DNA of 64,000 bases. Origin: Enoplolaimus lenunculus. Lineage: Eukaryota. The notes below the pieces were generated by a model. It ran no database searches. It had not been told where the DNA came from and saw nothing but the letters and a program-made list of their open reading frames with translations. This document shows positions 126 to 55,977 of this stretch, piece by piece. The stretch covers positions 620,001 through 684,000 of the forward strand of contig JASANG010003752.1 of the NCBI GenBank assembly GCA_030248215.1, written 5' to 3'. The position numbers were made by a program, and so were the translations under genes. How positions within the stretch are numbered: the stretch's first letter is position 1; every line of letters starts with the position of its first letter.

Positions 126-3100
126 ATGTGGCTAAGCGTAGCATCAGCTACTCTGATAATACTTTCAATTCCACCCTCGTCCGCAAACATCTTACTGACC
201 CTCAAATTTTCGGATTGGAGTTTAGTGAACACGTTTCGTCAAATGTGCAATTCAACTTGTCTCGAATGTCAAACATGTGCCGCGACCAAAACTGCAGAAC
301 TCATCTTAGCGACAGTGATTGACGAACGCCGGGTGACGTCTCATAATGTCAACGATGCTATTGTTGTTCAACCAGAGCATCGAAACGTTCAAAATGCAGC
401 CGTAAACAGCCGTGAGTATTATTGGAAATGGACCGATTTACCGCCGTCGAACGAACAACTGTTACTGGGCGAACCGTCGTTTGTTAATCCTGTTGTTACT
501 AATGTTGAAAGTAGGTCTACACTGTAAAAAAATGGGGAGTCAAATTGACTCTCTCGGAAACAGGTTTTTCCTGACTACACAAATTGAGTCAAATTGACTC
601 TCTCTCGGAAACAGTTTTTCCTGACTCACAAACTGAGTCAAATTTGACTCCGCAAGAATTCACTGTTGACTCTGGCGGAGTCAAATTTGACTCAGTTAGT
701 GTAGTCAGGAAAAGCCTGTTTCCGAGAGAGTCACAATTTGACTCCCCATTTTTTACAGTGTACAAGCAATAATAACATCTATTCGTGACTATACAAAACA
801 TTCATTGCCTTGCTATCTCAACAGTAAACGTGTCAAAAATAAAACGATATTTTAAATGCTTTTCGCGTTTCAAGTAACATTATTTTACATGTTCTTTAGT
901 AGAATGGAAAAGCTGGAAAACGAACAGCTATTCTAGCAAATTTGTGTTAAGTAGTACACACTTTGTAATGTTTATCAAAACGATATTTGAGTATTAATGC
1001 GCCGTACCCAATAATTTGGTCAACGGTGCCACAAAATCTCTTATAGACCAGTCCTATCACCAACTCGTTTTCAAAATGACCTCGCGATAGGCCAGGACTA
1101 TTAGAGATTTTGAACCAACGTTGACAAAACTATTACTGTCTACACAGCAAAAAATGGTGAGTCAAATTGACTCTCTCCGAAATAGGCTCTACGGGTTCTA
1201 CACAAATTGAGTCAAAATTCGACTCCGGCAGAGTCAAATTCGATTCACTGGGTGGCATGTTTGACTCTGGCGGAGTCGAATTTGACTCATTTTGTGTAGT
1301 CCCGTAGAGCCTATTTCGGAGAGAGTCAATTTGACTCGCCATTTTTTGCAGTGTAGGCTACTGTAGAAAATTGTACACACATGCGAGTCCCTAAGTTCCT
1401 AATTGAGTGTTTGTAAATTATATATCCAAAGGTCACCCACACTATGTGTACACCCGGCTGACAATAGAGAGTCCCTCTGAACGGCGTATGCTTTGCCTCA
1501 CTATCGCACATACAGATGCCACTTTGTCAATACGTTATAGAAAGTACAGCGTTTTGTCCTGAGTCTGTCAGAAGGACATTCGCTTATTTCATAACACAAA
1601 GTCTGTTCGAAGGGGCTCTGTTAAGCGATTATACAGAGTCTGTGCGATGGAACTCCTATTGTCAGACACTTTGTCCGAACTGTGTCCACATTGCTTCCAC
1701 ACCCTTCGAAGAGACTACCGCCATAACAGAGTAACTATGTATGCCCTCTGCAAAGTCCAAATATCCCAAAAAACAGTATTGTTTTGTACCGCCCTTGCAA
1801 ACAAGTGGGTGGTCAATTTTTACAGTAGCGTAGACAGTATAACGTGGATGACCCATAATAACGTTTATTTCAAAACGCAAAACACAATTGCTATTTTTAA
1901 CAAGATTGGTTAAATATGCTTTATTAAGTGAGAAAGTAATTTCATGTCGTGTGCACCGTCCCCACATTAATTTCTGATGCTTAGGCTCAGGCAAATGCTT
2001 GCGTACATGTAAGCCTTTTTCTAAACCCAAATTTAAACCTTAGCAGTGCAACTGGAAATAGTTAGTTAAAGCAAGAGTGCATGATCACTCTTTAACAAGA
2101 GTGGACAACTATCGAAATTTGTGCGGTAAAAAAGTACCACCAGGTGTTGCGGTTTGGCCGACGCTCCCACGTTATGTACAGGGGAATCGCTATCACACGC
2201 TATACCAGGGGCACGCCAAATATGCAACGCGTGCCGGGTACATTCTGTCCAACACAGCATGTACCCTGCTGAATATTTTTGTTGGACTCAGCATCATCAA
2301 CTCTTGGTAAAAACGGACAAGATTTATAGAAGGCGAAAGAATTCTTGTAACACGCAATTTTTCGGCGATATTGAATTAATTCTTAAGCTTTTGGGGTGTA
2401 CGTCTTCGTTCGCCTCGCTCAATAATTGTGTTCTTGCCGGAAGCTTAAAGCCGCAGCGTATTACGTGTTCAGGAAAGGGTACAAGAACGTTTACTTTTTT
2501 GATATTTTCAGCGGCCGACAGTCGCGTTGTGATATGGCTTGAAATGTCCGGCGGTTCACGTTTTTCAAGTTGTAAATTCACTACCTCGCATACAGTAGCC
2601 GTCAAAGAACATTTAGGTCAACCAATCAAATCGCATACGCTTGTAGGTGATTGCTTCACCCTTAACGTCGAAATTACCGCAGTTTGTGCGCCGTTCTATT
2701 ACGGCGCGCGTTGTACTCAGTCAGTATCGCCTAGTTTCGCCGCGATGGGAGGCGGTCACAGCGGAAATCCGGGTTTTGTACCGGCAAGCGAAGCGCGAAA
2801 TTACTTTAGTCTATTTGTGATTACAGGTACGTACCTTTACGTTCAACGTGACTGCGGCTAAGGTACCCAAGGCCCCGTCGGACTTGTAAGATGGAGCCCT
2901 TGTGGGGTATCAGTTACGGGCACACCAGCTGATTGAAGAATGGGTACAAATACGTGTGGGCGCAATTGAGAAGCCAAATAGGCGTGAAATATGCGGTACT
3001 TAATTGTATTTGCGTCGAATGCGTAAAACTTATCTGTTTTGCCGGGCGGCTGGTGTTCTAGAGCATAAGGTGGGTGTAGTATCCGCTGTACAGGTCCGCA

Positions 3101-6212: not shown

Positions 6213-6464
6213 TGCACAACTCTAGAGGGATTTAATACTAAATTCTGAATCGAACAAGAATTAAAAAATCATACTTGTGCTTTTATTTCAATCGAGAAAA
6301 CAGGAAAAGTTTTACCGAACAAAAACTAGAGTAGAAGTAGTATTATAAATTAAATGTACCAATTAAATGCAGACACATCCAAATAAAAAAATTTTCCGGA
6401 CCCAGTTTAAGCATATTCATACGCCTAAAGCCTAAGGATAAAGCCTAAGCCTCAGCGTAAGGAT

Positions 6465-6647
6465 TATCAGTCTATGTAGATACGATTGAGAAGTTCAGAC
6501 CTTGTTTTATGCAGCTGGAAACGCAGGGTATAGAGGTTTGCTCAAACTAGGAACTAATGATCTTAAGCGAACACTGTACTTCTGCGCTACGTAGCCTGTC
6601 TTTTATCTACCAACCCTGTTGATAAGCATCCAAACAATATGCTTACT
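6465..6647 (-). mobile_element. Old, diverged solo LTR related to the TRIM at 6767-7383
   Basis: Shares, in order, TCAGTC, CAGACCTT, GCAGCTGGAAA, CTTAAGCGAACACT, CTGCGC.ACGTAGCC and terminal ATGCTTAC with the young LTR. Confidence 0.65.
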
Positions 6648-6824
6648 TTTGTGAGGTCCGCAAGGGCTCAAAAAGTGCAGGAATATATTATACTTCTGAA
6701 AACGGTTTTTGTTTATTACTCTCAAGAGTATTTTCTTAGCTAGTGGTATAATACATGTGTGCTATGTGTCAGTCAAGGTAGGAACCGGGACATCAGACCT
6801 TTTTTACTAAGCAGCTGGAAAAGC

Positions 6825-6897
6825 GGGCACGAGCGGGGATCGAACTCTCAGCCTATGGATCCTTAAGCGAACACTCTACCACTGCGCCACGTAGCCC
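6825..6897 (-). ncRNA. tRNA-derived sequence / Pol III type-2 promoter in LTR (not a functional tRNA)
   Basis: 73 nt GGGCTACGTGGCGCAGTGGTAGAG...GAGTTCGATCCCCGCTCGTGCCC. A box TGGCGCAGTGG, B box GAGTTCGATCC, ends pair like an acceptor stem, TTTT 2 nt downstream. The anticodon stem does not pair. Confidence 0.7.
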
Positions 6898-7187
6898 GCC
6901 TGTGCAACTGCATTTTTCGTCGACTATATTTGTCGACCGTATGCTGCCAGCTACCATACATACAGTGCACTGCACTATATTGCATGTGCACATAACGGAC
7001 AAGCATGTCTCACATGCTTACATGCCCTTATTTTCAACAAGGTCGTCCCTTGACCGTCCAACCTATTTTCGACTGGATACCGTGTTCATAGCGCGGCAGT
7101 TTACCATTGCGCTCACGGCGTAGCCCCCATGTCAGTCAAGGTAGGAACCGGGACATCAGACCTTTTTTACTAAGCAGCTGGAAAAGC

Positions 7188-7260
7188 GGGCACGAGCGGG
7201 GATCGAACTCTCAGCCTATGGATCCTTAAGCGAACACTCTACCACTGCGCCACGTAGCCC
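7188..7260 (-). ncRNA. tRNA-derived sequence / Pol III promoter, second LTR copy
   Basis: Same sequence as 6825-6897. Confidence 0.7.
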
Positions 7261-8719
7261 GCCTGTGCAACTGCATTTTTCGTCGACTATATTTGTCGAC
7301 CGTATGCTGCCAGCTACCATACATACAGTGCACTGCACTATATTGCATGTGCACATAACGGACAAGCATGTCTCACATGCTTAAGGGCTCAAAAAGTGCA
7401 GGAATATATTATACTTCTGAAAACGGTTTTTGTTTATTACTCTCAAGAGTATTTTCTTAGCTAGTGGTATATTACATGTGTGCTATGCAATACTTTTAAC
7501 TCATTCCTTTCTAGTGAATAACGCTAGTTCGATCGCACCCGCTACTCGGTTTTACAGCTACTTAGCAAAAAAGTCTGAATTATCGGATTTGGGTGGGTCT
7601 CTGCAACGGCTTTTGTGTGTTTCAGATCAATGATGTTAGCGTAGTCGCCCTTCACCAACGGCACGGCCTGTTTTATGAGCACTTACTATGAAACGTTTTT
7701 ACAGAAAGGCACAGATATACACAGAAATGTTATACAATGTTGTGCAGTTAACAATTTCCACCATACGGTTATTACCAGTAGTTTCAGTTATATCTGGTCT
7801 AAGCCTAGAGGTCTGTACAAGCCTAAGGCATATGTTATGGTGATTATACTGTGTTGTTATAATTATGATGCGCGTAATCGAAGAATGGTTATATATGAAC
7901 CTATAGTACTAGTGTAGCAGCTTCGTAATAAATCGCTCTAATATAGAGGAAACCAATGTACGATATATACATAACACATTAGAGATGTCACGGGGTCGGG
8001 TCCCAACGACTCGTTAACATGGACGGTACATGAAAAACGTTTACGTATCCGCTTTTGCTCGTTTACAACGTTTTAAATTTTTGATCGGAATCAGAACTAA
8101 TTGTGAATCTAATTTTAACCGAAATCGCAACTCTGTGTACCCTGATTTGTAAACAAAAAAATTGCCCACTCGTACTTTACTACAAACGCCCCCGCTTCGC
8201 GCAGTACCTGAATAAGGTCAACGGAATATACATAAGCGCTTAATCGAAAAACGACCCCAAACAATAAAATATCCTGCCGATGTACACTTTCACATAGCAA
8301 AACAGCTGCTGTGTGAACTTGTTTCGTAAACAATACAACAGCACTGCCGTAGATTGTACATATCTCTATTGTCTAGGCAAAATGCCCCGTGGCACAATTT
8401 AGCCAAAATCTGAACGCAGCACAGTAAGTTCATTACATTATCGTAGTCAAAATGTTGCGTGACGCGATATGGCAAATAACAGACGCATTAACACTAAGTT
8501 CACAACGTTGGGAGTATATATATCAACAAAATCTCTCGTGACGCGATATGATAAAAACTGTACCGTACTCCCAAGTACATGCTTACACAAAAGGTAAGTA
8601 TATACATGAAATTTCCAGTTCATGTATTTTGCTGGCCTCGGATCATTTTTCATTCACTGTACTATCTTACGTTATACAGATTTGTAATAGTTGATATTCA
8701 GTCGTTGTACATATATAAT

Positions 8720-10717: not shown

Positions 10718-13286
10718 TAGTCAACAGGGTAACGATGATCATAGCACAGCAATTTGCTTGTCTATTGATTAAACTGAATGAAACCAACACTGCAGCCTCT
10801 ACTATGTTTATATTATGTTTGTGTAAAACATCAAATCGTAAGCGCAGCCTGGGCGTATTTGGCAGGCATAAAACCACTGGTGTTCAATATTAGCTTTTAC
10901 AGCACACAAAAAAACTTCTTTCGGCGCCAAACAAATTATGCATGCGTAAGTTTTTTGAAAGCAAAATATAACTGGCGTCATAGTAGTTCGTGTTGTTTTA
11001 CTACAGCAAGTTTTATGATCGCCGCTGCTAGCTCATTTCTGCTTGAGGTCAGAAAACAGTTCAAATTGTAGCCGGTGCGGGTCGTGAAAACACCACAGTC
11101 ATAGTCACTGTCTCGGCAGCAGGTCAGCAGGCCGCTACATGCCGCCTTGCATAATTTTCCGAGGCAAACGTGTGGAGAGTACATGGCGTCCAAATCTTCT
11201 ACCGGACCAACCTCATCCCTGGGTTGCTGCCAACGAGTCGGGTTGGATAGACGGTGAAATGTTTCTGAAACGGTGTAACTGGGAGCAAAATACAAGAACC
11301 TATGCTGACGGAGTTTTAGAAAAGCGGCTTCTCTTGTTTGACGGACATTTATCACATCTTTATGTGGAAACAGTTCGTCTGTCTCGTGCTCAAAGCGTGT
11401 CACTTCTCAAGTTCCCTGCGTATACCGCAGAGTTACTGCAACCGGCTGACGTATCGGTGATGAAACCTCTTAAAGATAACTGGTCAAATCTACTAAATCA
11501 GCGCTTAAAAACCGACCGACGGCCACTATCAAAAAAAGAATTCAATGAAAACATTGCGAGAATCTGGCCTACTGGGTGCACAGAGCCGAACATAACCGCA
11601 GGATTCCAAAAATCTGGGATTTACCCTTCTGATCGGTCGAAATATCATTTGCATCGGTTTGACCAGGCATTGCTTGACGGCTATCGTCAGTGGGAGATAG
11701 ACGAAAATACAGATCCCCAAACGTTACATTGGCTCGCATCAATGGGACCGAAGTCGAACCGCTTGATCTGTGCCACAGCAGCCTCACGAACCACAGGTTG
11801 ATAAGGCGTCGCCAGCTCGACCCGAATCACCGCTTGCTGGCCCATCTATTGCACCCACGCCATCTACCAGCTCCACTGGCGGAAACGCTTCAACTCAACA
11901 TTCCGCAGACATGCCGCGCTCCACGTTTCATGCAACATCATCAGCAATGGGTGCACGTCAGTCCGGATCGTTTCAGACGTTCTGGATTCCTGATGGTGTG
12001 GAATTTCAGTTACCTGCTGGAATCGTTCGGCAAGTTGTGCCCTCTGATGTTCGAACACCATCTCCGGCGTCTTCATTTCGCGATGTGATTGCGAAAACAA
12101 TCGCGAGCAATAAAAGCAGCTTGGCGAAAGGACCACGTTATCGAACGGCGCCGAGTGGTTAATCCACGAGGAGAACTGGAGAAGCAGAAGATCTTGCAAA
12201 AAAGAAACGCAAGGGCAAGCAGCCCGGTTCCAAGTTTATGCCTGAGGTCGCTGATGTTGATAACTGAGAAGAGTTTGCAGATGATTATGATGATAATAAT
12301 AATGCATCAGTGGACATAGAAAAAGACATGGAGGCTTTAAGGCGCACAATGGAAGCTCATCACAACTTTTTGGCGTTGATGACGCCGATGTCATAGGACA
12401 ATGGTTTGCTGTCTTATATGGTCGAAAACTCTATTATGGAAAAATTGTGAGCCACGCTTTTCAGAGGGCCAACTTTCTGCTGTCGAACTAAACTGCCTAA
12501 CATACAAGTTCGCTGCGGCCAAAGGAGACGATTACGCTTAGCCCGAAAGTCTCGATCAGGATTCTTTAGCACCCTACAACATTATCGCCGGTCCGCTGGA
12601 TGTTGATCTTCTTAGAGGCCGAGGAACTCGCTATCGCATAATGCAGAACGCTACCATTCGGCAGAACTTAGCAGAAATCATAAAGTTGGATAGAAATGCG
12701 GAATATGACTACCGCCGCAGCATTCAGCAATAAACCAACATCCGACATAACAATCACACATGTAAATAACTGTAAATAATTTTCCGTAGTGCATATATTA
12801 ATCTCTAAATATCATTTTTCGTCGTTTGGTTCCGCTATTCACATCGCTCGAAGCAAAGCTGCTATAACATCAGCCGGTCATCGAGCTCAGCTGCGAGGCA
12901 TGTGCTGGAGAAGTGTGCCCAATCAACAAAAGTGAGTTGGTGTTTAATATTTATACATTGTACATACGCGGTATATATTATTCAGACGGTTATACCCTGA
13001 CAACTGACGCGTTTGGCGTATGCTCTTGGCATGATAAGTTTCTATCAATCATGATCATCGTTACCCCGGGCTATGATCACCGTTACCCAAAAGTGGGGTA
13101 ACACTGATCAGAATAAAGAATTAACCTTATTTTCACAATCGTAATAGTTACGCCAATTTCTTTTTTATCTGTTGCACGTTGAACCTTGCTTGGCCTATGG
13201 CTCTATAAGCGGTAAGTACCTAGCCACTAACTCCCTGACTAGAACACTATTTCCAAAATCTGTATCGCGGTTACCCCTTCTGACTA
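10718..13286 (+). mobile_element. Decayed pogo/Tigger-type (Tc1/mariner superfamily) DNA transposon
   Basis: TA|TAGTCAACAGGGTAAC at left is inverted to GTTACCCCTTCTGACTA|TA at right. Subterminal GGTAAC..TGATCA motifs at 10727 and 13050-13110. Encloses a transposase pseudogene. Confidence 0.75.
11040..12733 (+). pseudogene. DDE_1 (pogo/CENP-B family) transposase, frameshifted and lacking the N-terminal HTH
   Basis: GRENTTVIVTVSAAG / MPPCIIFRGK / NESGWID / LLLFDGHLSH / KFPAYTAELLQPADVSVMKPLK / AGFQKSGIYP; several frameshifts downstream. Confidence 0.9.
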
Positions 13287-14150
13287 TACTCAATGTTTCG
13301 AGTTCACCCTGTATGTAAGCTTTACTTTAATATTATATTAGTTAGCTGCAAGTTTCACTCGCGGTTTTGAAATAAAATTTACGCCTTCAGTTATAATAAT
13401 TGTCTTGATTTATCGTGTTTTTCAAGATTGGTATTATACAGATTACTTCGGTGATGTCCATCCATACATTTTGTTATCAAACTTCAAAAATAGCATTTCT
13501 AATTTAGCGTTTTTTACAGAATGTTTTACCGAAAGTAAAAAATAATCAATTGTATGCTTTTGCTGAGATGGTTGTCTTTGACACGGTTTTACCTGTCGTC
13601 AAGAAATAAAAGTGTTGATTTAATATTTTGGGTTGAAAAATAACCTCACACATATTTTATATGTTTTCAGTAAAAATTAATTAACTACGGTTAATTATAT
13701 GTTTTTGCTTCTCTCCGCGATTCCGAAATTATAGTGTTTATAATTATTTGTTTGAGAAAAACCGGTTAGTCGGCTTTGTGCAAAAGGCGTTGTTTATGAT
13801 TAGCATAGGAACCGTATTTTCTTAACGATCGGTTAATTGCTTTCGATTATTATGGTGTTATATATATTACGTTACAATTTGAAAATCCATCCAGTGCTAT
13901 AGCTACCAATGGTTTGTAGGTTTACAAAAACCATTTACTCTCAGATACACTTTTAAGGGTGTTATTGCAGTGTCTTACAACTGTTTTGCTGTAGTTCGAT
14001 TTTTGCAACTACGTTCTGAAATTGATATCAGCTTTTGTTTTAGCGTCAATTTGTAACGAAATAAAATGTTGAACATTCAGCATTCTTTCGCCGACCTTAT
14101 TTCTTAAATTCGTCAATTTCTATTTGTTTAAGGGCTTCTTTTTGTGGTTT

Positions 14151-15461
14151 ATTGAGCAGAGCAAAACTCCGATCGAAGCTCGGAGTTGCGCGAAGCGTTT
14201 TATATTTTGTACTGAGGGGTCGTAAGGTGGAAGTCCGTCCGTCAGTCTCTTTGTCCGAAAAGAATCTCAGGAACCGCTGATCCGATTTTGATAAACTGTT
14301 TTTGTCTGAAAGCCAATTATCCTGGGGTGTTAACCACGCACTGGAGTTTTAAATTTTTAAGCCGTTTAAATTTTTAAGCCGTTTATTAGCTACAGGCTAA
14401 TTTGCATACTTAGTTACGCATAATTTAGGACTTTTTACATCATTTCACTAAGCATTAGGGTTACAAGCAATTAATTTTAGCAGTAAAAGACTTTTGGGTG
14501 CGAGGAATCTGTGTTATTAGCAAGCCTCCAAAATCGACAATTGAATAGTTATTGTGCGAAGCAAAACTCCGAGCGAAACTTGTAATTTCGCGAAGCCTCG
14601 GGGGTCGAAAGGTGGATGTCCGTCTATCCGTCCGTCCGAAAAGAATCTCAGAAACCGTTGAACCGATTTTGATAAACTTTTTTTGTTTGAAAGTCTGTCA
14701 TTCTGGGGTGTTAATCTCGCACAGGTATTTTAAAATTTTAAGCCGTTTATAAGCTACAGGCTAATTTGCATAATTGTTTAAACCTAAATTGTGACTTTTT
14801 AACATATTTCACTAATTATTCCGGTTACAAGCAATGTAATTTCAGTGTCAAAGAGTTTTTGGACGCGAGGAATCGGAATAAATTGTCTACAAATCTTCAA
14901 AACCGATAATTGAATAGTTAGCTAATAGCTAATTTGCATATTGCATAATTGATAAGCCTAAATTAAGACTTTTTGCAATATTTCGCTAATAAATTATTAG
15001 GGTAACAAGCAACCTAATTTCAGCAATAAATGGTTTTTGATGTGAGAGGAATCTGAACAAATTGTCTATAAACCTTCAGAACCAAAATTGAATAGTTAGC
15101 TAGTAGTTAATTTGCATATTAGCATAACTGATAAGCCGAAATGTAAGACTTTTTACAATACTTCACTAATTATTGGGGTTACAAGCAATCTAATTAAAGC
15201 AGTAAACGGTTTTGGGATGCAAGGAATCTGAATAAGCTGCCTAACAGCGTTCAAAACCGATAATTTAATAGTTAACTAATAGCTAATTTGCATATTACCA
15301 CATTTGTTAAGCCTAAATTAGAACTATTTGAAATATTATACTATATTATTAGGGTTACTGAAAGGTTTTTGGTGCGATGGATCTAAATATATTGAAAACT
15401 TCAATTCCAATAAATGAATAGTTAGCTTATAACACATTTGCATAATATTAGCTTAATTGCT
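14151..15461 (+). mobile_element. Two tandem Helentron/HINE (DINE-1-like) non-autonomous elements with internal ~180-bp tandem units
   Basis: Heads at 14151 and 14551 (GCAAAACTCCGA..GGAGTT hairpin, GTCCGTC microsatellite, ATCTCAGGAACCGCTGA.CCGATTTTGATAAAC), followed by repeated GCTAATTTGCATA...GAGGAATC...AATTGAATAGTTA units. Homologous to 38566-39483. Confidence 0.7.
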
Positions 15462-15471
15462 TAAGTACATG

Positions 15472-19300: not shown

Positions 19301-22300
19301 TTGGTTCGTCGACGGATGTAATTCTTGATAGGCATCATCTAAAATCAAAGCAGTACCAGAACAGTAAAAAATTCTCGAACGCGAAGACAGGAGCGTTTTT
19401 GTACGCATTCCTAATTGAGGTTTTACTGGAGAAGGTTTGAGATGCTGCGTTATGTTACAGTTTCGGGCTTGTCACTGCTGCATGAAGTAAGCATAATTAT
19501 TGTATGTTGATACGCGTTTTATGCCAAATTTTATTACCTCATCGTACTATTACGTTGCAGGGATTTTATTCAGATAGAAGATTCCAAATTTGGAGCTTGT
19601 TTTACGTTCAATCATGAGGGCAGGCCAGGCGGACTAATGTTCAGTAATCGTGCCGGGCCGCTATATGGTAAGTTTAATCTGTTTTACTGTAACACTTTTG
19701 TTGCAATGTTCTGTCAATCTCTTGTTTATATTTTAAATTTAAATAATGAAAACTGTGGTAAAGTGTTTATTATTGCATATTTTGTAAAATTTCATCAAAT
19801 AATTATGTTTATTATGTTTGTTTGGTTTATACTTTACAGTGAAATTTTGAATACTGGTAGCAGATGTGTTTGTTTTGCGTATTTTGTAAACTTTAATGCC
19901 ATTAATATCTGTGGTGGAATTGATTACATTGCTTTCTTTAAATGTGTTTCAACGGCAATATTAAGCAGAATAAGTGTAACTTATGTCACAAGAATAGTAT
20001 ATTTAACCTTACTTTAGTGAAGTAGTGAAAAATAAATATCATTATGATTTGAACACCTACCACAATGATACAATATGACATATTGGCTGTGTTTCTGACA
20101 TCTTACTTAAGTATTAACTTAAGTTATGCTAAAGTAATTACTTAAGTTGCCGACTTAAGTAAGTACTTAAATTTTCGAGCACAACCAAAGAAACACCAAA
20201 TATCGGCCATTGTCCGGACAAGGAACTAATAGTTTTGCTTTGTGTTAAGGAGACATCATTAGTCTACAATTTCAATTACACCAAAGTTAGTATGCCAGAG
20301 CGGTTAATTTGTAGTATATCAAATTTAGTCAGCGAAACTTAAGTACGCTTTTAAAAACGACAAAATAGTTGGGAGCTCGTACTAAGTAGGGTTTCGGAAA
20401 CCCAGCCAGTGTATGTGAGTGCTGCCTAAGCTAATTCTCCAATTTACAGACTACAATAAGTATGCAGGCTTGAAATATAACATGCAACCAAGATTCCATG
20501 ATGACTCTATGGACAAGAGTAAGCAACTTCTGCGCTATCGTGTGCTTCAAAATGTACCAGCAGGCATAGCATTTTCGCCCACCCCCACTTAATTTTGGGG
20601 ACCCTTTAAAATAAGTGGAACAAGCCAAAAACGCCACGTGCGCTGGATACGTGCTTTTGCACACAGAATAAACGCAGTTGCACACTCTTGTAAAATAAGG
20701 TCATCATACACTAATGGTACAACTGATTAAATTATATGTAGAGCTAATAACAGGTATGACACAATCTAGCATGCTGAACTGCTGAATATTGGCAATATAG
20801 GCCGATTCGCAAAGAATCAGTGTTGCGACAATTTTGATCATTTACCAATAAAACCGATCAGAAATAGATCAAATCGCCAAGTAAAAAACTAACCATTATA
20901 TGCACAAACTGTAGCATTGTATTTGGTGTTATTGGCATTTCAGGACTTCGGCTTCTTTTGAATACATCGATTGATGAGTATCTGGTAACAACAGAATCCA
21001 GCGGCGCCCGTGTGGTTGTGCACAATCAGTCCATTTACCCGTTTCCTGATACCTACGGCTATAATGCGGCATCTGGATACTCTACGTCGTTTGGAATTAG
21101 CTATGTAAGCTGCGGTTTGCACGTAGCAGGGGCTGTGAAATGGAGTTTAAAAGTTAGGAAATATATTGCCTGTGTGTTAAGTAGGTTTTTGTTTCTTGTA
21201 AGACATTGTATACCTGTTAGTTGTATATAAAATGGAACGCAATAAAAGGTCATCGGAGTAATGTGTTTTTTATTTCAACAGCATGATATCAATCGCCTCG
21301 GATCACCATATGGCCTGTGTAAACGTGAACAAGACGCTCCACTTTACGACAGCTTATATCCTGGTGATTATACTATGGAAGTATGTTTACCCGTTATGCA
21401 ATTTGGTCAGTTTAACTAAATTTTACAATATATTTTACTAATATATTTAACAACAATAATTTCAAACACGAAAACGGTGTGTTCGACGTCTGATCAGTTG
21501 TCTACTTGTAAATATTTTTTGGAACGTGATACAACTTAAGCTAGTACGGTATAACAAGCGGGATTTGACTCCCTCCTCCATGTAACTGAAATATCTGAAG
21601 TATAAGATTTTATTTTATCGGTGAAACTTACTAAACTGTTTATGTTTTCAGTGGATGAGGCTACTTCTCACCCCTGAACATTTCGCAGTTTAAAAGACAC
21701 TAAAGTAAATGGCAGGACGCACCGCCCCTAAAACTCCGTACAATATAAAACTTTTGTGGTGTAGGTAAACAGTGCGGCATAAAGACTGAAGCACTACAAA
21801 CCGCATGTGAAAATTAGTACCAACAGATACGTAGAAAAGTACACGTAAATGTGGAACATAGTAATGCTAGAATTCAAACCTGTGTTTGAATACTTTCAAC
21901 CTAATATTTTGCAATGAATTGATTAATTCCCGCATGATATGATTTTTTTATTATTTCAGGGCTGTTACCGAGCTTGTGTTCAAAAACATATGATGGAGGC
22001 TTGCTTATGCGCTGATCCGCGATATTTAATGCCGAATAGTACGAAGAAATTATTTTTCTGCACCATTATTATGGTGGACCATAGTAAGTCATTTTATGGT
22101 AAATTTTGGATGAAATCCGTTACTAATTAACCATTCTTTCATTGAATATTTTCTGTTTCATTTGAGAGTCTATTCGAAGATACGGGTCTGACACAACGCT
22201 TCGCTTTCGGATGGGAGGCGTCTACGGTTATAGCTTGGTCTGTTCACTCGTAAAGTATTGGTACATTGAGCTTGAGTTGAGACTTGTTTGCTTTTAATAG

Positions 22301-35800: not shown

Positions 35801-37086
35801 ACTGGAACATATTATTATAGAATCCAGTAGTCTTACGCACAATGCTTTGTATCCTATATGATTGAAGCACTTAGCAGTTGGGAAACATGGATTTTATAAT
35901 TTAGGCGACTTCAACGCTGAGTATTCGTGGCATATTAGTAATTTTGTTTTTATCATTGAGTTGGTTACTTTTATTTCGGCAATGTATGCGAAAGACGATG
36001 GCTGCACAAAGCTTGCTCCGTTGGTGTTTGTGCAACTAATTTTTGCACCAATCGACAGCACTCAGAATGCGTATTCTGTTGATACAAATTTACCTTTACA
36101 GAAAATTTATTTGAGATATATAGTTCGAACTCGAAGTATTTGCTATTTTAGGTCAATGGAGATGAGCAGCGATTGGTTACGCCATTTGATCTGCACGAGT
36201 TACTTGTCGATGTGATTCGATGGCCCGGTGATAAATCATATGCATTTCCCCTCAAGCATCCGTTACCACGTGGCATTAGCCTATTTAACGTAAGTTGACA
36301 CAAGAGTTGCCTTAGGCGCAGGTGTTGATAAAATTTTGAGCTTATCGAGTTAAATTAACCTTTCACACACTTCTTATAATGTTTGAACTAATTATTGGAA
36401 ACCTAACGTTTGCGAAATCTAAGAATTTGACAAGATTGTTGTAATATAGTGGTTTAATTCTTTGATGTTAATAGGGAAACGTTGCATGTTAAAGTGTCTG
36501 ATAACAAATGCTGAAAAAAGACGTATGATGCTACATTGTGCGTTAGGTATATAGTAACGTAATGCAAATCGGTTGATGTTCACAGGAAATTCCGTCAGAT
36601 CGCACTTGTAGCGACGCATCCGTCAAACCACATTTTTGCTCGTGTCTTGAATGGGACGATTTATCAGTGAACGATAGTGTCGTTATAGACGCAACAGCAT
36701 ACATCATCAATCGATTTAACAACTATCTAAAACCAGCTGGCAGCCATTGTGTACCTCTATCGCTTAAGTATATTGCAACGGCACGTTTACTGCAACCTAA
36801 TCATGCGCTGCTTGCATTCAAAGAAAGCAAAGACTATGACAATATATTTCCTGATTTAACCGCAGACACTCAAGTGCAATCGGTATTGTATCAGATTCGC
36901 ATTATAACGTCGCCAAACGATGGCGATTATGAAGTGTCAGTATCACACTTTATAAATCTGAAACAATTTTATCTCGATATCGATGCAGTTAGCCGAATTA
37001 ATATGTACGGCAATCAGCCGCATTGTATTATGGATAGCCAAGCGCAGTTGAGGCAGTTTTGTTATTGCAGAGATTTATTGGCCTGA
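29818..37086 (+). CDS. DUF229-family protein (alkaline phosphatase/sulfatase superfamily, type-II membrane), ~762 aa, 11 exons
   Basis: Exons 29818-30116, 30486-30789, 31410-31637, 32249-32411, 33250-33386, 33770-33907, 34090-34170, 34459-34591, 35293-35459, 36152-36289 and 36586-37086 are phase-consistent (2289 nt). Motifs IDSISRINFIRKLPK, GFNIVGDGT, GYVTSYAEE, GFQNPPVDHYLR, SHDD, GDHGRRFG, EEKLPF, LVTPFDLH, RTCSDASVKPHFCSC, VSRINMYG, FCYC. Confidence 0.92.
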
Positions 37087-38565: not shown

Positions 38566-39483
38566 ATTAAGCGAGGCAAAACTCCGAGCGAAGCTCGGAG
38601 TTTCGCGAAGCGTTTTATGTTTTGTGCTTGGGGGTCGAAAGGTGGATGTCCGTCTGTCCGTCCGAAAAGAATCTCAGGAACGGCTGAACCGATTTTGATA
38701 AACTTTTTTGTTTGAAAGCCAATTATCCTGGGGTGTTAACCTCGCATTGGGGTTTTGAAATTTTAAGCTGTTTATTGGCTACAGGCTAATTTACATAATT
38801 AATTAAGCCTAAATTAGGACTTTCCACAATATTTCACTAATTATTACAGTTAGAAGCAATCTAATTTTAGCATTAAAGGGTTTTTGGGTGCGAGGAATCC
38901 GCGTACACTGTTTACAAACCTCCAAAGCCGATAATTGAGCAGTTAGCTAATAGATAATTTGCATTTTAGCATAGTTTATAAGCCTAAATTAGGACTTTTT
39001 ACAATATTTCACTAATTATTAAGGATAAAAGCAATATAATTTCAGCATTTAAGGGTTTTTAGGTGAGAGGAATTTGAATGAATAGTTTACAAACATCCAA
39101 AACCGATAATTGAATAGTTAGCTAATAGCTAATTTGCATATTAGCTTAATTGACAAGACAAAACTAGGTCTTTTTAAATTATTTCAATAATTATTTTGGT
39201 TTACTGAGATTTTTTGGTGCGAGGAATCTGTATCAATTGTTTACAAACCTCCAAAACCGATAATTGAATAGTTAGCTAGTAGCTAATTTGCATATTAGCT
39301 TAATTGACAAGACAAAATTAGGACTTTAAATTCCAAAAATTATTAGGGTGGCTGAAGGGTTTTTGGGTGCGAGGAATCTGAGGAAATTGCTTACAAACCT
39401 CCAAAACCGACAAATGAATAGTTAGCTAACAACTAATTTGCATATTACCTTAATTGCTTTCGTGTGCTCCAGCTTCGCTCAAT
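38566..39483 (+). mobile_element. Apparently full-length Helentron/HINE-like element with ~4 internal tandem units
   Basis: Terminal inverted ATTAAGCGAGGC / GCTTCGCTCAAT, 5' hairpin CTCCGAGCGAAGCTCGGAG, GTCCGTCTGTCCGTCCG, ATCTCAGGAACGGCTGAACCGATTTTG, then tandem ~140-180-bp units. Confidence 0.72.
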
Positions 39484-41694: not shown

Positions 41695-41789
41695 GCCCAT
41701 GTATAGAACAGTAGGCATAGGCTTAGGCTTAGGCTTAGGCTTAGGAATATGCTTATACTACTGTTCCGGCCCTGATCTATACATGGGCC
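41695..41789. mobile_element. Small MITE carrying TTAGGC telomere-like repeats
   Basis: GCCCATGTATAGAACAG is inverted to CTGATCTATACATGGGC, enclosing TAGGCATAGGC(TTAGGC)3TTAGGAATATGCTTA. Confidence 0.7.
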
Positions 41790-42804: not shown

Positions 42805-45800
42805 TTAAGATTGAGCTTCAATGTGTCCATGACAACAGCATTCGCACGAATCAAAACATTGACACGTAACGCCAGTGATAAACACTTGTTTGGCCAAAAT
42901 CCAAAACGCATTTTTCATTCGAGGTCCAAAAAACGTATACAGGTAAAAGTTCATTGAATGATGACCGTAGTAAAGTAACAGTGAAAGTAGCACAAACCTA
43001 AAAGTATCAGGATGTAACCGGATGTGAAAAATAGCGTAGCCGGAGGCAGACCTCCAGTTGTACAGCGCAAAATATCGTATGGTTTTCGATTTGTTAAAAA
43101 TCAAGTGCACATAGAGAGGGTTTAAGCTCAATCTCTGTTTGAGAAATTTATTTCAAATTTGGACAGCTATTAAGTTAATTTAAACTGCGAAATAGACGAC
43201 AATGATAAAAAATCATTGTCCAGAGTTAAGTTTGTTGTTATCTTTTGATCGTTATCTTGACCATCGGCAACTGTTAGCCAAACACAGTTTATCTCTCTCA
43301 TCGTTAAAATTTACAAAACCACTTCGGTAAATTGAAATTGCTTTGGTTTTAAATTTACATATACAACTTGTACTTCAGGGTACCACCTGAGGTGAAAAAT
43401 AACGGAGCTGCAGTTATCGCCCAAGTGTTTTATACAAGACAAACAAACGTTTAATTCAACGGATAGTTGCAATACCGGATATGTATCAGCAACGAAGGGC
43501 GGCGGAGGGCGGGTAAAAAAGAAATAACAGTCCGTAACCGAATAACAGAGGGACCTTCTCGAGAGGTCAAATAAATATCAGTCCCCCTTGTTACTGTAGT
43601 GGCCCGAATAAGAGGGGGGACTGATATTTGTTTGGCCTCTCCAGAAGGTACCCCCTTGTTATTCGATTACGGACTGTTATTTATTTTTAACCCACGCTCC
43701 GCATCCCTTCGTTACTGATATATCCGGTACTGCAATTATCCGTGGAACTAAACGTTTATTTGTCTCGTATCAATAGCTTGAGCGATAACACAAGGTTATA
43801 CTTAGGAATGTACCTTCACAATTTAAGTACGCTTTAAAGTTTCGAACTCAAATTATATGATCCTGGAGTCATTTAAGCACTACAATTAGGGTTAATTGAC
43901 ATTTATGGACTCTAATTAGGGTTTAGGGACTCTATCCGCTTACGGAATCTTATTCTGGATACAGACTCCAATTGATTGGGACTCAAAATGGGAACCCCCC
44001 TCTTATTACCCACCTCTTCTTCCGGTCACTACAGTACAGTAACTAGGGAAACTACCACAGTTTTTGCATTTTATAACGGAAACGGAAATGGACACCGATT
44101 TTTGCCGAAAACGGACACGGAAATCCGGATATATCCTGCCGTCTGTCCGTCCAAAAACAATCTCAAGATCCGCTGAACCGATGTTGAGAAACTTTTTTGT
44201 TTGAAAGCTTATTATTATCCTGGTGTGTTAACCTCGCATTGGGGTTTCAAAACCAGGCCGTTTATTATCTAGAGGCTATACATAACTGTTTAACCCAAAA
44301 TTAAGGATTTTTACTGTATTTTACTAATTATTAGAGTTACAAGAAATCTAATTTCAGTACTAAAACGTTTTTGCTTACAAGAAATTTGAATAAATTATTT
44401 ATAAAAACCTCTAAAACCTATAATTGATCAGTTAGCTAACAGCTAACTTGCATATTAGCTAAATTAGTGAAACCTAAATTAGGACGTTTGAAATTTCTGA
44501 CTGATTATAAGGGTTACAAAAAATAAATTCAACATTAAAGTGTTTTGGGTGGGAGCATTAGGAATAAATTGTTTATAAACCTTCAAGACCGCTAATTAAA
44601 AAGTAGTTAATAGCTAATTTGCATAATAGCTTAACTAATAACCCAGAATTGGGATTTTTTAATTATTTCACTGATTATTATGCAAATAATCGATTTCAGT
44701 GCTAATGGTTTTTACGCGCAAAAATCTTAACAAAATGTTTATAAACCTCCAAAACCGATCAATGAAGAGTTAGCTACTAACTAAGTTGCACATTAGATTA
44801 AACGGAAAGTAGTGGGTCAAATTATCTGTTTGTGCTGTATAAGTTTGGAATGCTTAACTAGAATGATTAAAAAGAGAGTATGTCGGAGCTTAGCTCAATA
44901 CATGTAGGTCTACTACGGCTTGTTTTGCCTGTTGAAAACAATTACAGCCCGTGTTCAGTAAAATTTAGCAAATTTACGCTAACAGAACGAAACATCTGCA
45001 AAAAACCGGTTCATAGTTTGATAATTCATTTCCGTACCGATTGTGCTTCTAAAATCAAGAGCTTTTTTAGTCAAAATTCTAACCGAAATCAAAATTCTGT
45101 GCGCACCCTAATCAGTGGAGATTTATAATGGTATAAAAATTCAAGTATAGCATTGATCCGCATTAATCTGCGCATCGGTTATAATGCCGCAAAACTGCAA
45201 AGCTATAGGACGCGGCCCATGCAATCAACATGGGCCATTCGTTGTACCGGAGCGGGAGCATTTTCCCTAATTATTAGCACCACAATTCAAACGTACCACT
45301 GATCAACATTAAACTGAGTATCGTTAATCATGTTGTAAAACCGCAAAATATAATGCGGCGAATTCATCACGACAAACGTTGTTGTAACAATAATTAAACA
45401 TTTTGTGAGTTGTTTGTCTGAGTTTCGAATTATAACCTAAAATAATACAAACAAACCGAGATTCGAAATGCTAAAAACTTTCGCTGCATTCTGCAAATGT
45501 TCGTTGAATGGAGTTTACGTCAAAGAATTCTGGATTTTCTCCAAGAAAAACGTTTAGAAGCGATGACGAATTCTAGACATTGCACTTTAAAGTTCTATAA
45601 CAGACTTTGTAAAGTTAATCTTAAACGCTGTATATATCTATATATTTAAAGCTGGAATGCGCCACATACGTATTTTGGGCAACTTTCCAGCATTACTTTG
45701 TGGTATACAATATTTTCTTCGAACTGAAACGTAATTGTTCTGCGAAGACAAAATCGGCATACACACTGTCGTTCAATATTGTGCATTGGCTAAACTTTTC

Positions 45801-48155
45801 TGCATTGAGGAAAACCGGCTGACTAGTTTTAACTATTTGTAAAACTTAAAATTGCATTTTTCGATGTGTTTCTCATTTTCAAACTAATAACAGTTTCACG
45901 GGAATTCCTTCATTTTCGTAGCACCCTTACCTCGCTTACAGCTTGCTCTGAAATCGGCAACAACTCATGATTGGTTTGATTGACACACTCGAGTGTTGTT
46001 GTGAGTCCTTCTTGAACTGCTTTAAATTTAAAATATGTCCAAAGTTTAATTGTAATATAAAAATTTAACGCCACAATAATACTTGTCGGTATAAAACACG
46101 ACAAAAACATATCAGCAACGGTAAAAATATGATATAACATTCGAATCAATTGTGACTGTTCTACAGCACATCCGTAGCCAGGGATTGGTTTTGCCAAAAT
46201 CAAAATCCACGTACAAACCAAGCATGCACCAGCAATAACTGCAATTGTTAATATACGAGCGTTGCGAACGTTACAATGGGATCGACGCACTGTTGGTAGA
46301 CGTAGAACAACAAAACGTTCAGCGGTAACGCATAAAATCAGCCAAACTGATGCACAATCGGTGAAATGGGTAATGAATTGAAACGATTTGCACGCGACTA
46401 CGTTGCCTTGATGTACAGACCACCCTAAAATTTGGAACATGAAATATTATTTGTTGCTGCCGTATGATTCGCCAATATGGAACATCGATAATCGAATTAT
46501 TTGTTCGGTCCATGTAAAAGCTATGGGTACCTGCCCAAGTGCCCACTAAGCCTAAGTCTAATCTTAAAGCCAAAAAAGCGTAAACGGAAGCTTAAAACAT
46601 GAACGCATTGCAGTGGCCCGAATAAAAGGGAAACGTACATTTGTTTGTCTATCCACAAGAGGGTTCTCCCTGGTATTCCGTTACGGACTGATATATTTTC
46701 ATTCAGCCCATGTTTAGTTGAATTCGACACCCTTCATTTTTATACTCTTTCTTTTGTTCAGAACAGACTTGCTCCGAAATTGGTCTGTTTAATGCCAGGC
46801 CCCTTTAAATAAAACTGCTGCGAATTGCCTGAGCATCTGTCGCATATTTCGCAGTTTAGGCCATTCTTCTGCTTTTGTCTTTAATGGACTCTAATTAGAA
46901 CTTATGGACTCTATCCACTAACGAATTCTAATTAGAGATACAGACTTCTGTTGATTGGGACTCAAAATGAAGACCTCCTCATATTAACCACTCGTATCCG
47001 AGTCGCTACAGAAATATTAATATTTAGTCTATGCCTCACAGTCTTTTGATCCCTTTCGTCTCCATGTCCCCCAGTCCCATTTGGCAAAGGCCATAATTAT
47101 CATGCTCCGGCTCTTTGACAATATCCTACTTTGGATTATGCTGAATTTCGGATTGCATTGTTGACTTTCATATGTTTCCGTTCTGCTGAAAAGGTTCATT
47201 GAGGTTATTTTGAAAGCAGTTGGCCTAAACTGTTTCAATTAATTTAGAACACAGTTACGTAGACGAAATTTATTCTAAATGAAATTGGAATCGTAGATCT
47301 GGGTGTATTATACCCGTTTTTTAAGTTTATGCTTATACAAGGCGCTTCACTGCAAAAAAGCAAAAATTGGTGAATCAAATAGAGTCTATCCGAAATAGGC
47401 TTTTAGGCATTACACTAACTACGTCAAATTCGACTCCGCCAGAGTCAAATTCGACTCACTGAGCGACTCGGGTGAGTTAAATTTGACTCTGGTGTAGTTG
47501 AATTTGACTCAGTTTGTGCAGTCCGGAATAGCATATTTCGAAGAGAGTCAATTTGACTCACAATTTTTTCTGTGTGCTTCAACGGTGGTGTGCGCCTTTA
47601 ATAGGCTTGTTTTGTGCTACCTGATGCAAGTATCTACGTATAACAATGGAAAAATCCCACGAGCGAAGTGAGGCAAAAGCCAGACGCATGTTTGTGAGTT
47701 CAAACTTTTCAAAAAACTCCGTTTTAAATCCAGTTTTAAAATTCATTTTGTCTTCCAACAGTGGACAATTATAAGACTGTGCTTACTTCAGCTATGTGAG
47801 ATTTGGAGACGACAATGAGGTTTTGGAAGCATATCTATTAGAGACACATTTCGAAATAAATACCTGAGATTCCTGTCAACCATTCAACAAGTAGCACCCC
47901 TAGGAACGCGACATCAACCACTGCTAAAGCAATCAAAAACGTATGCGAAGGATAACGTTTAGAACATCCGCTTCCATTCAGACGAGACAACAAAAACATC
48001 GCCAAGATGTTACCAGCCAGACCAAATGCAATAATTATCGGCATACTTATTCCAGCAATCATTCTTGACAGTGAAGCTCTGCTGTCATCATTCCCACTCG
48101 GCTCAGCTGCTTCCAGTGAACCAGAAACGCCAGTTGTTGTAAAATTTGATAGCAT
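42805..48155 (-). CDS. Class A (rhodopsin-like) peptide-type GPCR, ~372 aa, 4 exons
   Basis: Exons 48155-47864, 46424-45931, 45436-45297 and 42997-42805 are phase-consistent (1119 nt). TM1 GLAGN, TM2 LIALAVVD, TM3 CK..SVWLILCVTAERF, TM5 FIP..LN, TM6 FVVMNSP, TM7 HSMNFYLY, Cys-rich tail. Resembles invertebrate FMRFamide/sex-peptide-receptor-like GPCRs. Confidence 0.9.
43594..44034. mobile_element. MITE family E (CTGTAGTG.CCCGAATAAGAGG termini, TA flanks)
   Basis: TA|CTGTAGTGGCCCGAATAAGAGG ... CCGGTCACTACAG|TA; other copies at ~46609-47011 and 52420-52837. Confidence 0.75.
44141..44800 (+). mobile_element. 5'-truncated, diverged Helentron/HINE-like copy
   Basis: GTCTGTCCGTCC..ATCTCAAGATCCGCTGAACCGAT followed by the same tandem units as 38566-39483. 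Confidence 0.65.
47348..47576. mobile_element. MITE family A copy
   Basis: CACTGCAAAAAA..GGTGAATCAAAT ... GAGAGTCAATTTGACTCACAATTTTTTCTGTGTG. Confidence 0.8.
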
Positions 48156-49481: not shown

Positions 49482-49702
49482 CACTGCAAAAAATGCAGAG
49501 TCAAATTGACTCTCACAGAAACAGGCTTTTCCGGACTACACAAACTGAGTCAAATTCGACTTGCCAGAGTCAAACGCTCGACTATCCGAGCGACTCAGTT
49601 AGTCGAATTTGACTCTGGCGGAGTCGAATTTTGACTCAGTTTGCGTAGTCAGGAAAAGCCTATTTCGGAGAGAGTCAATTTGACTCACCATTTTTTGTAG
49701 TG
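49482..49702. mobile_element. MITE family A copy
   Basis: TA|CACTGCAAAAAATG ... CATTTTTTGTAGTG|TA. Confidence 0.85.
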
Positions 49703-55830: not shown

Positions 55831-55977
55831 GGTGATATCTTATTTAAACTGTAACTAATCTAAGACTTGACTCATCTGAGTTATTAAGAGTCATTGTCTT
55901 AAGAGTCTGTAATTTACTTATCCCTAGTGGGCTCACCCATTCTCCAAAAGGAGACCCGGGTCAGCTCGTAACAGGGT

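What the first reader, a model, noticed from the sequence alone, without database searches (positions are those of the whole stretch)
6767..7383. Miniature LTR retroelement whose LTRs carry a tRNA-derived Pol III cassette related to its own primer
Seen: 256-bp TG..CA LTRs, a 107-bp interior, PBS TGGGGGCTACGCCG and a PPT-like tract. Each LTR holds a 73-nt tRNA-like unit with A/B boxes and a downstream TTTT. The PBS implies a primer tRNA ending ..CGTAGCCC-CCA, whose acceptor 5' strand would be GGCTACG, and that is how the LTR-embedded unit begins. Established: the PBS resembles the tRNA-Pro PBS (TGGGGGCTCGTCCG); plant Cassandra TRIMs carry 5S RNA/Pol III promoters in their LTRs. Inference: an animal, tRNA-based analogue of Cassandra that captured its primer tRNA and may be Pol III-transcribed. 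The apparently identical LTRs imply recent activity.
Basis: partly seen in the sequence, partly recalled or inferred. Interest (0 to 1): 0.8.

Follow-up and report, generated by a model that had tools for sequence, protein, structure and literature searches.

The report
Helenus-type mini-retrotransposon, probably nematode
This is a real, abundant, non-coding jumping element whose end repeats carry a worn tRNA copy, a design already published as "Helenus"; the new points are that its host is likely a nematode and that the worn tRNA likely descends from the same tRNA that would prime its copying.

Summary
The anatomy is real: minus-strand LTR–107-bp interior–LTR, 14-nt PBS, PPT, and a 72-nt tRNA-like unit (A box, B box, TTTT) in each LTR. 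Public-run contigs show a large family: 91–168 contigs per run with mixed flanks stop exactly at an LTR end, diverged LTR–interior–LTR copies exist, and two samples carry an empty allele here. Corrections: the 5' LTR lacks its TG (254 bp), and this copy has no TSD but a 104-bp flanking duplication.

The concept is published: Helenus/TRIMp3 (Kojima 2024), in six animal phyla. Differences: the host is probably a nematode (not listed there); flank consensus hints at a 5-bp target (animal Helenus: 4 bp); and the PBS shares GGGCTACG with the start of the unit, whereas Kojima found no PBS–unit link. The PBS has the frame of tRNA-Pro PBSs (C. elegans Cer1 10/14, Aplysia 11/14), so a host tRNA-Pro variant is likely both primer and source of the unit. 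Self-priming is disfavoured: the PBS is conserved while the unit's 3' strand drifts. The host tRNA, the transcripts and the partner element were not seen.

The parts
6465..6662 (-). Old, decayed solo LTR of the same family (about 74% identical over the unit and U5); keeps GGCTACG at its unit start. Its outer end is missing in the window but present as 24 extra letters in the empty allele
   Evidence: tables 5c and 8
6663..6766 (.). Left copy of the 104-bp flanking duplication (differs from the right copy at 6751)
6767..7022 (-). 3' LTR, 256 bp, TG...CA
   Evidence: loose ends with mixed flanks at 7022 in 149/168/91 contigs
6825..6896 (-). tRNA-like unit in the 3' LTR (A box 6889-6879, B box 6846-6836), followed by TTTT at 6822-6819, the predicted end of a read-through transcript
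7023..7129 (-). 107-bp non-coding interior
   Evidence: covered by high summed depth in all 3 runs
7025..7035 (-). Polypurine tract GAAAATAAGGG, 2 nt before the 3' LTR
   Evidence: sequence
7097..7112 (-). A-box/D-arm-like stretch in the interior, 13 of 16 identical to the unit's D arm; unexplained
   Evidence: 84 of 2000 shuffles with the PBS excluded; 4 of 2000 in a post-hoc narrowed test
7116..7129 (-). 14-nt primer-binding site TGGGGGCTACGCCG, abutting the 5' LTR, tRNA-Pro frame
   Evidence: compared with PBSs
7130..7383 (-). 5' LTR, 254 bp, lacks the terminal TG; identical to the 3' LTR over its length
   Evidence: loose ends with mixed flanks at 7130
7188..7259 (-). tRNA-like unit in the 5' LTR (A box 7252-7242, B box 7209-7199), predicted Pol III start near 7259; TTTT at 7185-7182
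7384..7487 (.). Right copy of the 104-bp duplication; matches the empty allele of the runs without a difference
   Evidence: table 8
7526..7578 (+). Inverted, decayed fragment of the same LTR (B box to U5, about 77%)

Best explanation
This is a non-coding, high-copy miniature LTR retrotransposon (TRIM) of the Helenus/TRIMp3 kind, likely in a nematode, whose LTR-borne tRNA-like unit likely serves as an internal Pol III promoter and likely descends from the same host tRNA-Pro variant that would prime its reverse transcription. SHOWN: LTR-PBS-interior-PPT-LTR anatomy; many insertion junctions at the LTR ends; other LTR-interior-LTR copies; an empty allele at this locus; a conserved PBS. INFERRED: Pol III starts at about 7259, usually stops at the first TTTT (78-nt RNA) and sometimes reads through to the TTTT in the 3' LTR (441-nt RNA with a 78-nt R). 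A host tRNA-Pro with a GGCTACG/CGTAGCC acceptor stem anneals to the 14-nt PBS. RT, RNase H and integrase come in trans from an unseen partner, most likely a Cer1-like Gypsy. The PBS resembles the start of the unit because a tRNA's 5' acceptor strand is the complement of its 3' end, which is what a PBS copies. This particular copy's 104-bp duplication and clipped 5' LTR likely arose when the young LTR's outer end was joined, at a 2-nt overlap, to the similar end of the old solo LTR on another haplotype (aberrant one-ended integration or unequal recombination).
For: Anatomy. Family: 10313/6340/4211 contigs laid in 3 of 3 runs (2 samples, 1 study); summed depth 5e4-3.7e5 over the element against 14-69 in the unique flank bins (not a copy number); heterogeneous flanks at 7022 (149/168/91 contigs) and 7130 (36/34; 122/97); diverged contigs that span LTR-interior junctions (table 8 records 6, 12, 13, 20; records 1, 2, 10). 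Empty allele: X1 record 1 and an X3 row join 6662 to 7382 through 24 other letters, with no element and one copy of the duplicated stretch. PBS frame: same 14-nt length, direct adjacency and TGGGGGC....CCG as C. elegans Cer1's tRNA-Pro PBS (10 of 14 identical; PMC3315495) and 11 of 14 to the complement of Aplysia tRNA-Pro (Kojima Fig. S2); all differences fall in PBS positions 8-11, where these two tRNA-Pro also differ from each other. PBS conserved: only 7122 A>G (11.5%/10.1% of summed depth) and 7119 C>A (4.2%/1.8%) are listed at the 4% threshold. Layout U3-tRNA-like-T run-short U5 matches the Helenus consensus LTRs seen. No other T4 lies between the two terminators on the minus strand (weak). 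Host: TTAGGC 48 vs 28.3+/-5.1, 0 of 100 shuffles, a (TAGGCT)5.7 array at 41712, TTTCAG 87 vs 48.2, DEG/ENaC exon with top Atlas cluster 'commonest Nematoda', on 1 record only. Reading these two motifs as nematode telomere and splice signals is recalled knowledge.
Against: The host tRNA was not seen (no genome), so the primer identity rests on frame matching. The unit fails ARAGORN, Rfam and folding tests, and its B box has one mismatch to Helenus's GGTTC. The TTTT right after the unit in the 5' LTR would stop Pol III before the PBS, so read-through must be assumed. An AGTAAA in U5 and TATA-like words in U3 allow a Pol II reading. The interior continues to resemble the unit's D arm beyond the PBS, which primer copying does not explain. 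No listed contig shows the filled junctions of this locus (tables are cut), so a chimeric assembly of this copy's flanks is not excluded. The Atlas taxon call is weak: ranks 2 and 3 are Arthropoda and Mollusca at 0.96.
Confidence: 0.6

Rival explanations
1. Element-supplied primer: the short Pol III RNA of the unit (from this family, a rarer subfamily or the autonomous partner) is trimmed, CCA-tailed and used as the RT primer, so the family does not need a host tRNA.
For: The PBS shares 8 nt with the unit start. With the family-majority letters at 7192/7193 the unit closes with an 8-bp stem and, if CCA were added, would pair 9 contiguous nt with the PBS, against 8 for Aplysia tRNA-Pro (hand comparison). 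The TTTT after the unit would release such an RNA. A nematode BEL element (Cer7) is recalled to encode its own tRNA-like primer; that paper could not be opened.
Against: A PBS is recopied from its primer in each cycle (established LTR replication mechanism), yet PBS positions 10-12 do not match the unit's 3' strand in the window copy or in the family majority, while positions 12-14 fit tRNA-Pro. The unit's 3' strand is variable: 94-99% of depth differs from the window at 7192/7193, and 82/49 contigs carry another version before 7194, while the PBS is conserved. The unit does not fold as a cloverleaf. Kojima found no such complementarity in his families.
Confidence: 0.12
2. Ordinary tRNA-Pro priming over only the first 8 nt; the longer match arises because the interior's 5' part is an old duplicate of the unit's 5' half, which works as a Pro PBS since acceptor stems are self-complementary.
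For: The interior aligns to the unit beyond the PBS (whole: 5 of 2000 dinucleotide shuffles; 13 of 16 over the D arm). Many Helenus PBSs pair over only about 10-13 nt (Fig. S2).
Against: Without the PBS the similarity is marginal (84 of 2000). The CCG at PBS 12-14, absent from the unit start, restores exactly the 14-nt tRNA-Pro frame of Cer1.
Confidence: 0.18
3. A Pol II-driven TRIM in which the tRNA-like unit is a passive SINE-derived passenger and Pol III plays no part in replication.
For: TATA-like words in U3 and an AGTAAA about 40 nt before the LTR end; a T4 would block Pol III before the PBS; imperfect B box.
Against: No substitution at 4% or more is listed inside the A or B box in the family, though the A box lies near the stretch end; the same U3-unit-T run-U5 layout recurs in Helenus of fungi, wasps and bivalves; Cassandra is reported to use Pol III.
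Confidence: 0.2
4. The family is real, but this copy's 104-bp duplication and clipped LTR are an amplification or assembly chimera between two haplotypes.
For: The listed contigs of both samples show only the empty allele; the two duplicated copies differ by one base and only the right one is matched by the runs; the join lies at similar LTR ends; an X3 loose end at 7093 reads like a template-switch adaptor (recalled), which suggests an amplified library in that study.
Against: In X2 the flank contigs break exactly at 6662 and 7383, as expected if the window's left junction (26-bp deletion) exists as a second allele in that sample (table 8; inference). Biological inter-haplotype repair gives the same structure.
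Confidence: 0.25

Closest known systems
Helenus (TRIMp3), Kojima 2024, PMC10886601 (read: main text parts 1-5 of 6; supplement parts 1, 9, 10, 11 of 11 plus one term search of the whole file)
   Same: TRIM under 1 kb (617-619 bp; Helenus 311-1263), tRNA-like unit with A and B boxes followed by a T run near the LTR 3' end, PBS and PPT at the ends of a short interior, unit not a functional tRNA, hundreds to thousands of copies. A tRNA-Pro PBS is known (Helenus-1_TeGr).
   Different: No nematode in Table S1 (six animal phyla listed). The PBS shares 8 nt with the unit start, whereas the paper found no PBS-unit complementarity. 'ggctacg' has 0 hits in the supplement, so it is not one of the listed families. 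Flank consensus hints at a 5-bp target against 4 bp for animal Helenus. This copy has a 104-bp duplication instead of a TSD.
Cassandra and Ajax (5S-rRNA TRIMp3); PMC7215508 (passages), PMC10886601
   Same: Small-RNA-derived Pol III promoter inside the LTRs of a TRIM.
   Different: 5S-derived (type 1) promoter rather than tRNA-derived (type 2); Cassandra is in plants, Ajax in nemerteans.
Cer1 Gypsy of C. elegans; PMC3315495 (passages)
   Same: 14-nt tRNA-Pro PBS directly adjacent to the 5' LTR, same TGGGGGC....CCG frame (10 of 14).
   Different: Autonomous 8.8-kb gag-pol element with no reported tRNA-like unit in its LTR; only a model for the unseen partner.
Cer7 (BEL/Pao) self-encoded tRNA-like primer (recalled; Bowen & McDonald 1999 and Ganko 2001 not held, nothing read)
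   Same: Would be a nematode precedent for an element-supplied primer.
   Different: Autonomous and, as recalled, the tRNA-like sequence lies inside the element rather than in both LTRs; not verified here.

Membership tests
TRIM | Two direct terminal repeats with TG..CA ends, under 1 kb, no coding capacity | tested here: met
   617 bp, 256/254-bp LTRs, 107-bp interior; the family's LTR ends at 7022 and 7130 shown by loose ends. The window's 5' LTR is clipped by 2 nt.
TRIM | PBS after the 5' LTR and PPT before the 3' LTR | tested here: met
   TGG-initiated 14-nt PBS in the tRNA-Pro frame; GAAAATAAGGG 2 nt before the 3' LTR.
TRIM | Dispersed multi-copy family with interior | tested here: met
   91-168 contigs per run with mixed flanks at one LTR end; diverged LTR-interior-LTR contigs; empty allele at this locus.
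TRIM | 4-6-bp target-site duplication | tested here: inconclusive
   Not met for this copy (104-bp duplication; no 4/5/6-bp match). For the family the two flanks of one copy could not be paired; flank consensus only hints at a 5-bp site.
Helenus (TRIMp3) | tRNA-derived sequence in the LTR with box A (TRGCY..YGG) and box B (GGTTC) | tested here: met
   TGGCGCAGTGG (TRGC, then G where TRGCY has Y) and AGTTCGATCCC at tRNA spacing in a 72-nt unit: one mismatch in each box. Not detected by ARAGORN or Rfam; the paper says most Helenus units are non-functional.
Helenus (TRIMp3) | Animal Helenus: 4-bp TSD | tested here: inconclusive
   Right-flank consensus begins AT-N-AT in 3 of 3 runs; left-flank consensus ends in AT in 3 of 4 readings and in AT-N-AT in 1 of 4; agreement only 0.35-0.41. 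This favours 5 bp, weakly.
Helenus (TRIMp3) | Animal Helenus: PBS shared with a Gypsy partner | not testable with these tools
   No host genome; LTR-end plus PBS pattern 0 hits in metagenome contigs. The PBS frame matches Cer1 and Gypsy-13_CGi.
Helenus (TRIMp3) | Transcription by RNA polymerase III (untested also in the published families) | not testable with these tools
   No RNA holder listed.
SINE2 (tRNA-derived SINE) | Unit begins at the tRNA head and ends in an A-rich or repeat tail, with no LTR structure | tested here: not met
   Family junctions lie at the TG/CA LTR ends, 126 nt upstream and about 58 nt downstream of the unit, and the interior is as deeply covered as the LTR.
Self-primed LTR element (element-encoded primer) | Element-encoded RNA 3' end fully complementary to the PBS | tested here: not met
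   Assuming CCA addition: window copy 9 of 14, family majority 11 of 14 (9 contiguous), by hand comparison. Rare subfamilies and the partner were not tested.

The most novel reading that the evidence does not exclude
A nematode TRIM family that supplies its own reverse-transcription primer: the LTR cassette, in a master subfamily or in the autonomous partner, makes a CCA-tailed tRNA-like RNA with a GGCTACG acceptor that the host's tRNA set lacks, so one cassette is both Pol III promoter and primer gene.
Probability: 0.12. Interest if true: 0.8.

Novelty: new variant of a known kind. Interest (0 to 1): 0.4.

Why it matters
The headline idea is already published, so the surprise is modest. If confirmed, this would extend Helenus/TRIMp3 to nematodes and give a case where the promoter cassette traces to the primer tRNA. 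That suggests an origin other than the SINE insertion proposed by Kojima: capture of the primer tRNA during reverse transcription. The family is abundant, polymorphic and gives two sharp predicted RNAs (78 and 441 nt), so it is a tractable test of Pol III-driven LTR retrotransposition, which the Helenus paper says is unvalidated.

Tried and rejected
No host genome is held, so genome-wide TSD and tRNA checks were impossible. ARAGORN 0 genes; Rfam 4 matches at E<=10, none a tRNA and all below gathering score. No RNA holder listed: no evidence either way. Metagenome scan for LTR end + PBS: 0 hits. Scan for a tRNA with this acceptor stem: 0 in viral contigs; 2 in metagenome contigs, neither a tRNA; no positive control was run and this host's lineage may be absent, so the blank is uninformative. 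Protein searches did not name the host: DUF229 exon 3 unnamed hits at 36-53%, ASC and GPCR exons none, first Atlas search uninformative, PDB hits generic. My first reading of the '7192 put in behind T' row as a perfect acceptor strand was withdrawn as ambiguous (note). Cis masking of the PBS by the unit's 3' strand is not predicted: in the 441-nt RNA the PBS forms a local hairpin. SINE-only reading rejected (membership table). Depth differences between X3 and X1/X2 were not used as expression evidence. Bowen & McDonald 1999 and Ganko 2001 are not held; Cer7 searches gave nothing on its primer. No paper on a nematode Helenus/TRIM or on this PBS turned up in the listings; the library lacks most subscription journals and Repbase, and parts 2-8 of Kojima's supplement were only term-searched.

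Full report
OBSERVATION. The element reads on the minus strand: 5' LTR 7383-7130, interior 7129-7023 (107 bp), 3' LTR 7022-6767 (256 bp, TG..CA). The LTRs are identical over 254 bp, but the 5' LTR lacks its first two bases. The interior starts TGGGGGCTACGCCG directly after the LTR's CA and ends GAAAATAAGGG-CA. Each LTR holds a 72-nt unit starting GGCTACG (7259/6896), with A box TGGCGCAGTGG, B box AGTTCGATCCC and a TTTT three bases after it. GGGCTACG occurs three times in 64 kb, in the PBS and at both unit starts. The unit is not a recognisable tRNA.

SURROUNDINGS. There is no short TSD. The element lies between two copies of a 104-bp stretch that differ at one base. Upstream is an old solo LTR of the same family (6465-6662, about 74%), and downstream an inverted fragment (7526-7578).

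FAMILY. No genome is held. Three public runs (2 samples, 1 study; possibly including the source of the window, so not independent) hold the stretch. Laying their contigs gave 10313/6340/4211 contigs. Summed depth is 5e4-3.7e5 over LTRs and interior against 14-69 in the unique flank bins; the tool states this is not a copy number. Loose ends with heterogeneous flanks sit exactly at 7022 (149/168/91 contigs) and 7130 (36/34; 122/97), so the family normally has full TG..CA ends and at least some hundreds of junctions. Diverged contigs span LTR-interior-LTR junctions. Both LTRs of the window copy share letters that 92-99% of the family depth lacks (6829/7192, 6830/7193, 6904/7267, 6954/7317), as expected when both LTRs are copied from one template.

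THIS LOCUS. X1 record 1 and an X3 row join 6662 to 7382 through 24 other letters, with no element and one copy of the 104-bp stretch. Those letters share ATAACGG and ATGTCT with the young LTR's outer end, so they are the missing end of the old solo LTR (by eye). The window's right junction joins the young LTR to this allele at a shared TA; its left junction lacks 26 bases of that allele, and the left duplicate carries a base that the runs' flank contigs do not show. The simplest reading is a join between two haplotypes at similar LTR ends, by aberrant integration, unequal recombination or a library/assembly chimera. The insertion is absent from the listed contigs of both samples, which fits a polymorphic, recent insertion but does not prove one.

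HOST. An animal with DEG/ENaC, DUF229 and GPCR exons. TTAGGC (48 vs 28.3) and TTTCAG (87 vs 48.2) are enriched, 0 of 100 shuffles each, and a (TAGGCT)5.7 array is present. From recalled knowledge these are nematode telomere and splice signals. The Atlas top cluster is 'commonest Nematoda' on one record. I put a nematode host at about 80%.

PRIMER. The PBS has the length, position and TGGGGGC....CCG frame of C. elegans Cer1's tRNA-Pro PBS (10 of 14; PMC3315495 passages) and of the complement of Aplysia tRNA-Pro (11 of 14; Kojima Fig. S2). The differences are confined to PBS positions 8-11, where those two tRNA-Pro also differ from each other. A lineage-specific tRNA-Pro with a GGCTACG/CGTAGCC acceptor would explain both the PBS and the unit start, and the old solo LTR also keeps GGCTACG. 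Across the family the PBS is conserved (7122 A>G about 10-11%, 7119 C>A 2-4% of summed depth), while the unit's 3' acceptor strand varies (7192, 7193 differ in 94-99%; 82/49 contigs carry another version before 7194; 22 X3 contigs another behind 7190). Because a PBS is recopied from its primer in each cycle (established mechanism), the bulk of these units cannot be the primer: with CCA added they would match 9 (window) or 11 (majority) of 14. A rarer subfamily or the partner element remains possible. Unexplained: the interior continues to resemble the unit's D arm just after the PBS (13 of 16; 84 of 2000 shuffles without the PBS, 4 of 2000 in a post-hoc narrowed test). Scans for a tRNA with this acceptor found no real tRNA, without a positive control.

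MECHANISM (inferred). Pol III starts at the unit in the 5' LTR and gives a 78-nt RNA or, by reading through one T4, a 441-nt RNA ending at the T4 of the 3' LTR, with a 78-nt R; these are the only two T4 runs in that span. tRNA-Pro primes at the PBS, the PPT primes the second strand, and enzymes come from an unseen partner, most likely a Cer1-like Gypsy. Flank consensus begins AT-N-AT on the right in 3 of 3 runs but is less clear on the left, a weak hint of a 5-bp target. A Pol II reading (TATA-like words, AGTAAA) is not excluded.

KNOWN KIND. Kojima 2024 (PMC10886601; main text parts 1-5 of 6; supplement parts 1, 9-11 and a term search) defines Helenus as TRIMs with tRNA-derived LTR sequence, in fungi, Selaginella and six animal phyla. 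It reports 4-bp TSDs in animals, no nematode family, and no complementarity between unit and PBS. This element meets the defining features that could be tested, and the TSD test is inconclusive. A 2026 meeting report only restates Helenus (passages). Earlier AI notes of this scan describe diatom TRIMs with a PBS-matching tRNA-like piece; they are unchecked leads which suggest the link may recur. None was found for this genome or sequence.

VERDICT. Real, abundant and probably still mobile. It is a Helenus-type TRIM, so the headline novelty falls. What remains is a probable new host phylum, a non-random link between promoter cassette and primer tRNA, a possible 5-bp target, and an atypical insertion. 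Interest 0.4; element-supplied primer 12%, worth 0.8 if true.

Noticed in passing
runs X1-X3 laid on window 7165-7194: Several subfamilies share the U5 side of the LTR but have different tRNA-like 3' ends; 22 X3 contigs behind 7190 carry a different tRNA 3' half. Whether their PBSs differ could not be seen.
   Followed up: partly
window 7097-7112 (-): A second A-box/D-arm-like stretch follows the PBS in the interior, 13 of 16 identical to the unit.
   Followed up: partly
window 7263-7383 (-): U3 folds into several hairpins more stably than shuffles (z -3.4, 1 of 200).
   Followed up: no
runs X2, X3, joint 7022 -> 6767: One contig in each of two runs goes back 256 bases, which may be head-to-tail LTRs or tandem arrays as in Cassandra and LTR-11_DR.
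   Followed up: no
run X3, loose end before 7093: 4 contigs carry letters that read like a template-switch adaptor (recalled), so this run may be amplified or contain cDNA; its interior-to-U3 depth ratio is about 5 against 1.6 in X1/X2. Not used as evidence.
   Followed up: no
window 6460-6464 and the empty allele's right flank: The old solo LTR's flanks match at 3 of 5 bases in a 5-bp register, a very weak hint of a decayed 5-bp TSD.
   Followed up: partly
window 6404-6461 and 7596-7703: Two further repeats beside the element: a TTAGGC-containing repeat (summed depth 2e3-1.1e4; relatives at 41713-41759 and 62659-62736) and an unnamed one (depth 570-2800).
   Followed up: no
window 515-766, 1138-1356, 47360-47575, 49476-49705, 50513-50775: A family of about 220-260-bp palindromic MITE-like repeats, 70-86% alike.
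   Followed up: no
window 14149-15462, 38571-39459, 44139-44801: Dispersed repeat with internal 154-176-bp tandem units.
   Followed up: no
window 53419-58003: A broken LINE on the minus strand (endonuclease piece PF14529 at 55330-55839) lies between 31-bp minisatellite arrays, with a 285-bp duplication 53781-54065 / 57211-57491 at 96.8%.
   Followed up: no
window 11088-11801 (+): DDE_1 (PF03184) transposase piece.
   Followed up: no
window 19560-22085 (+), 36577-37086 (+), 45910-46446 (-): Exons of host genes: a DEG/ENaC channel, a DUF229 protein and a rhodopsin-family GPCR.
   Followed up: partly
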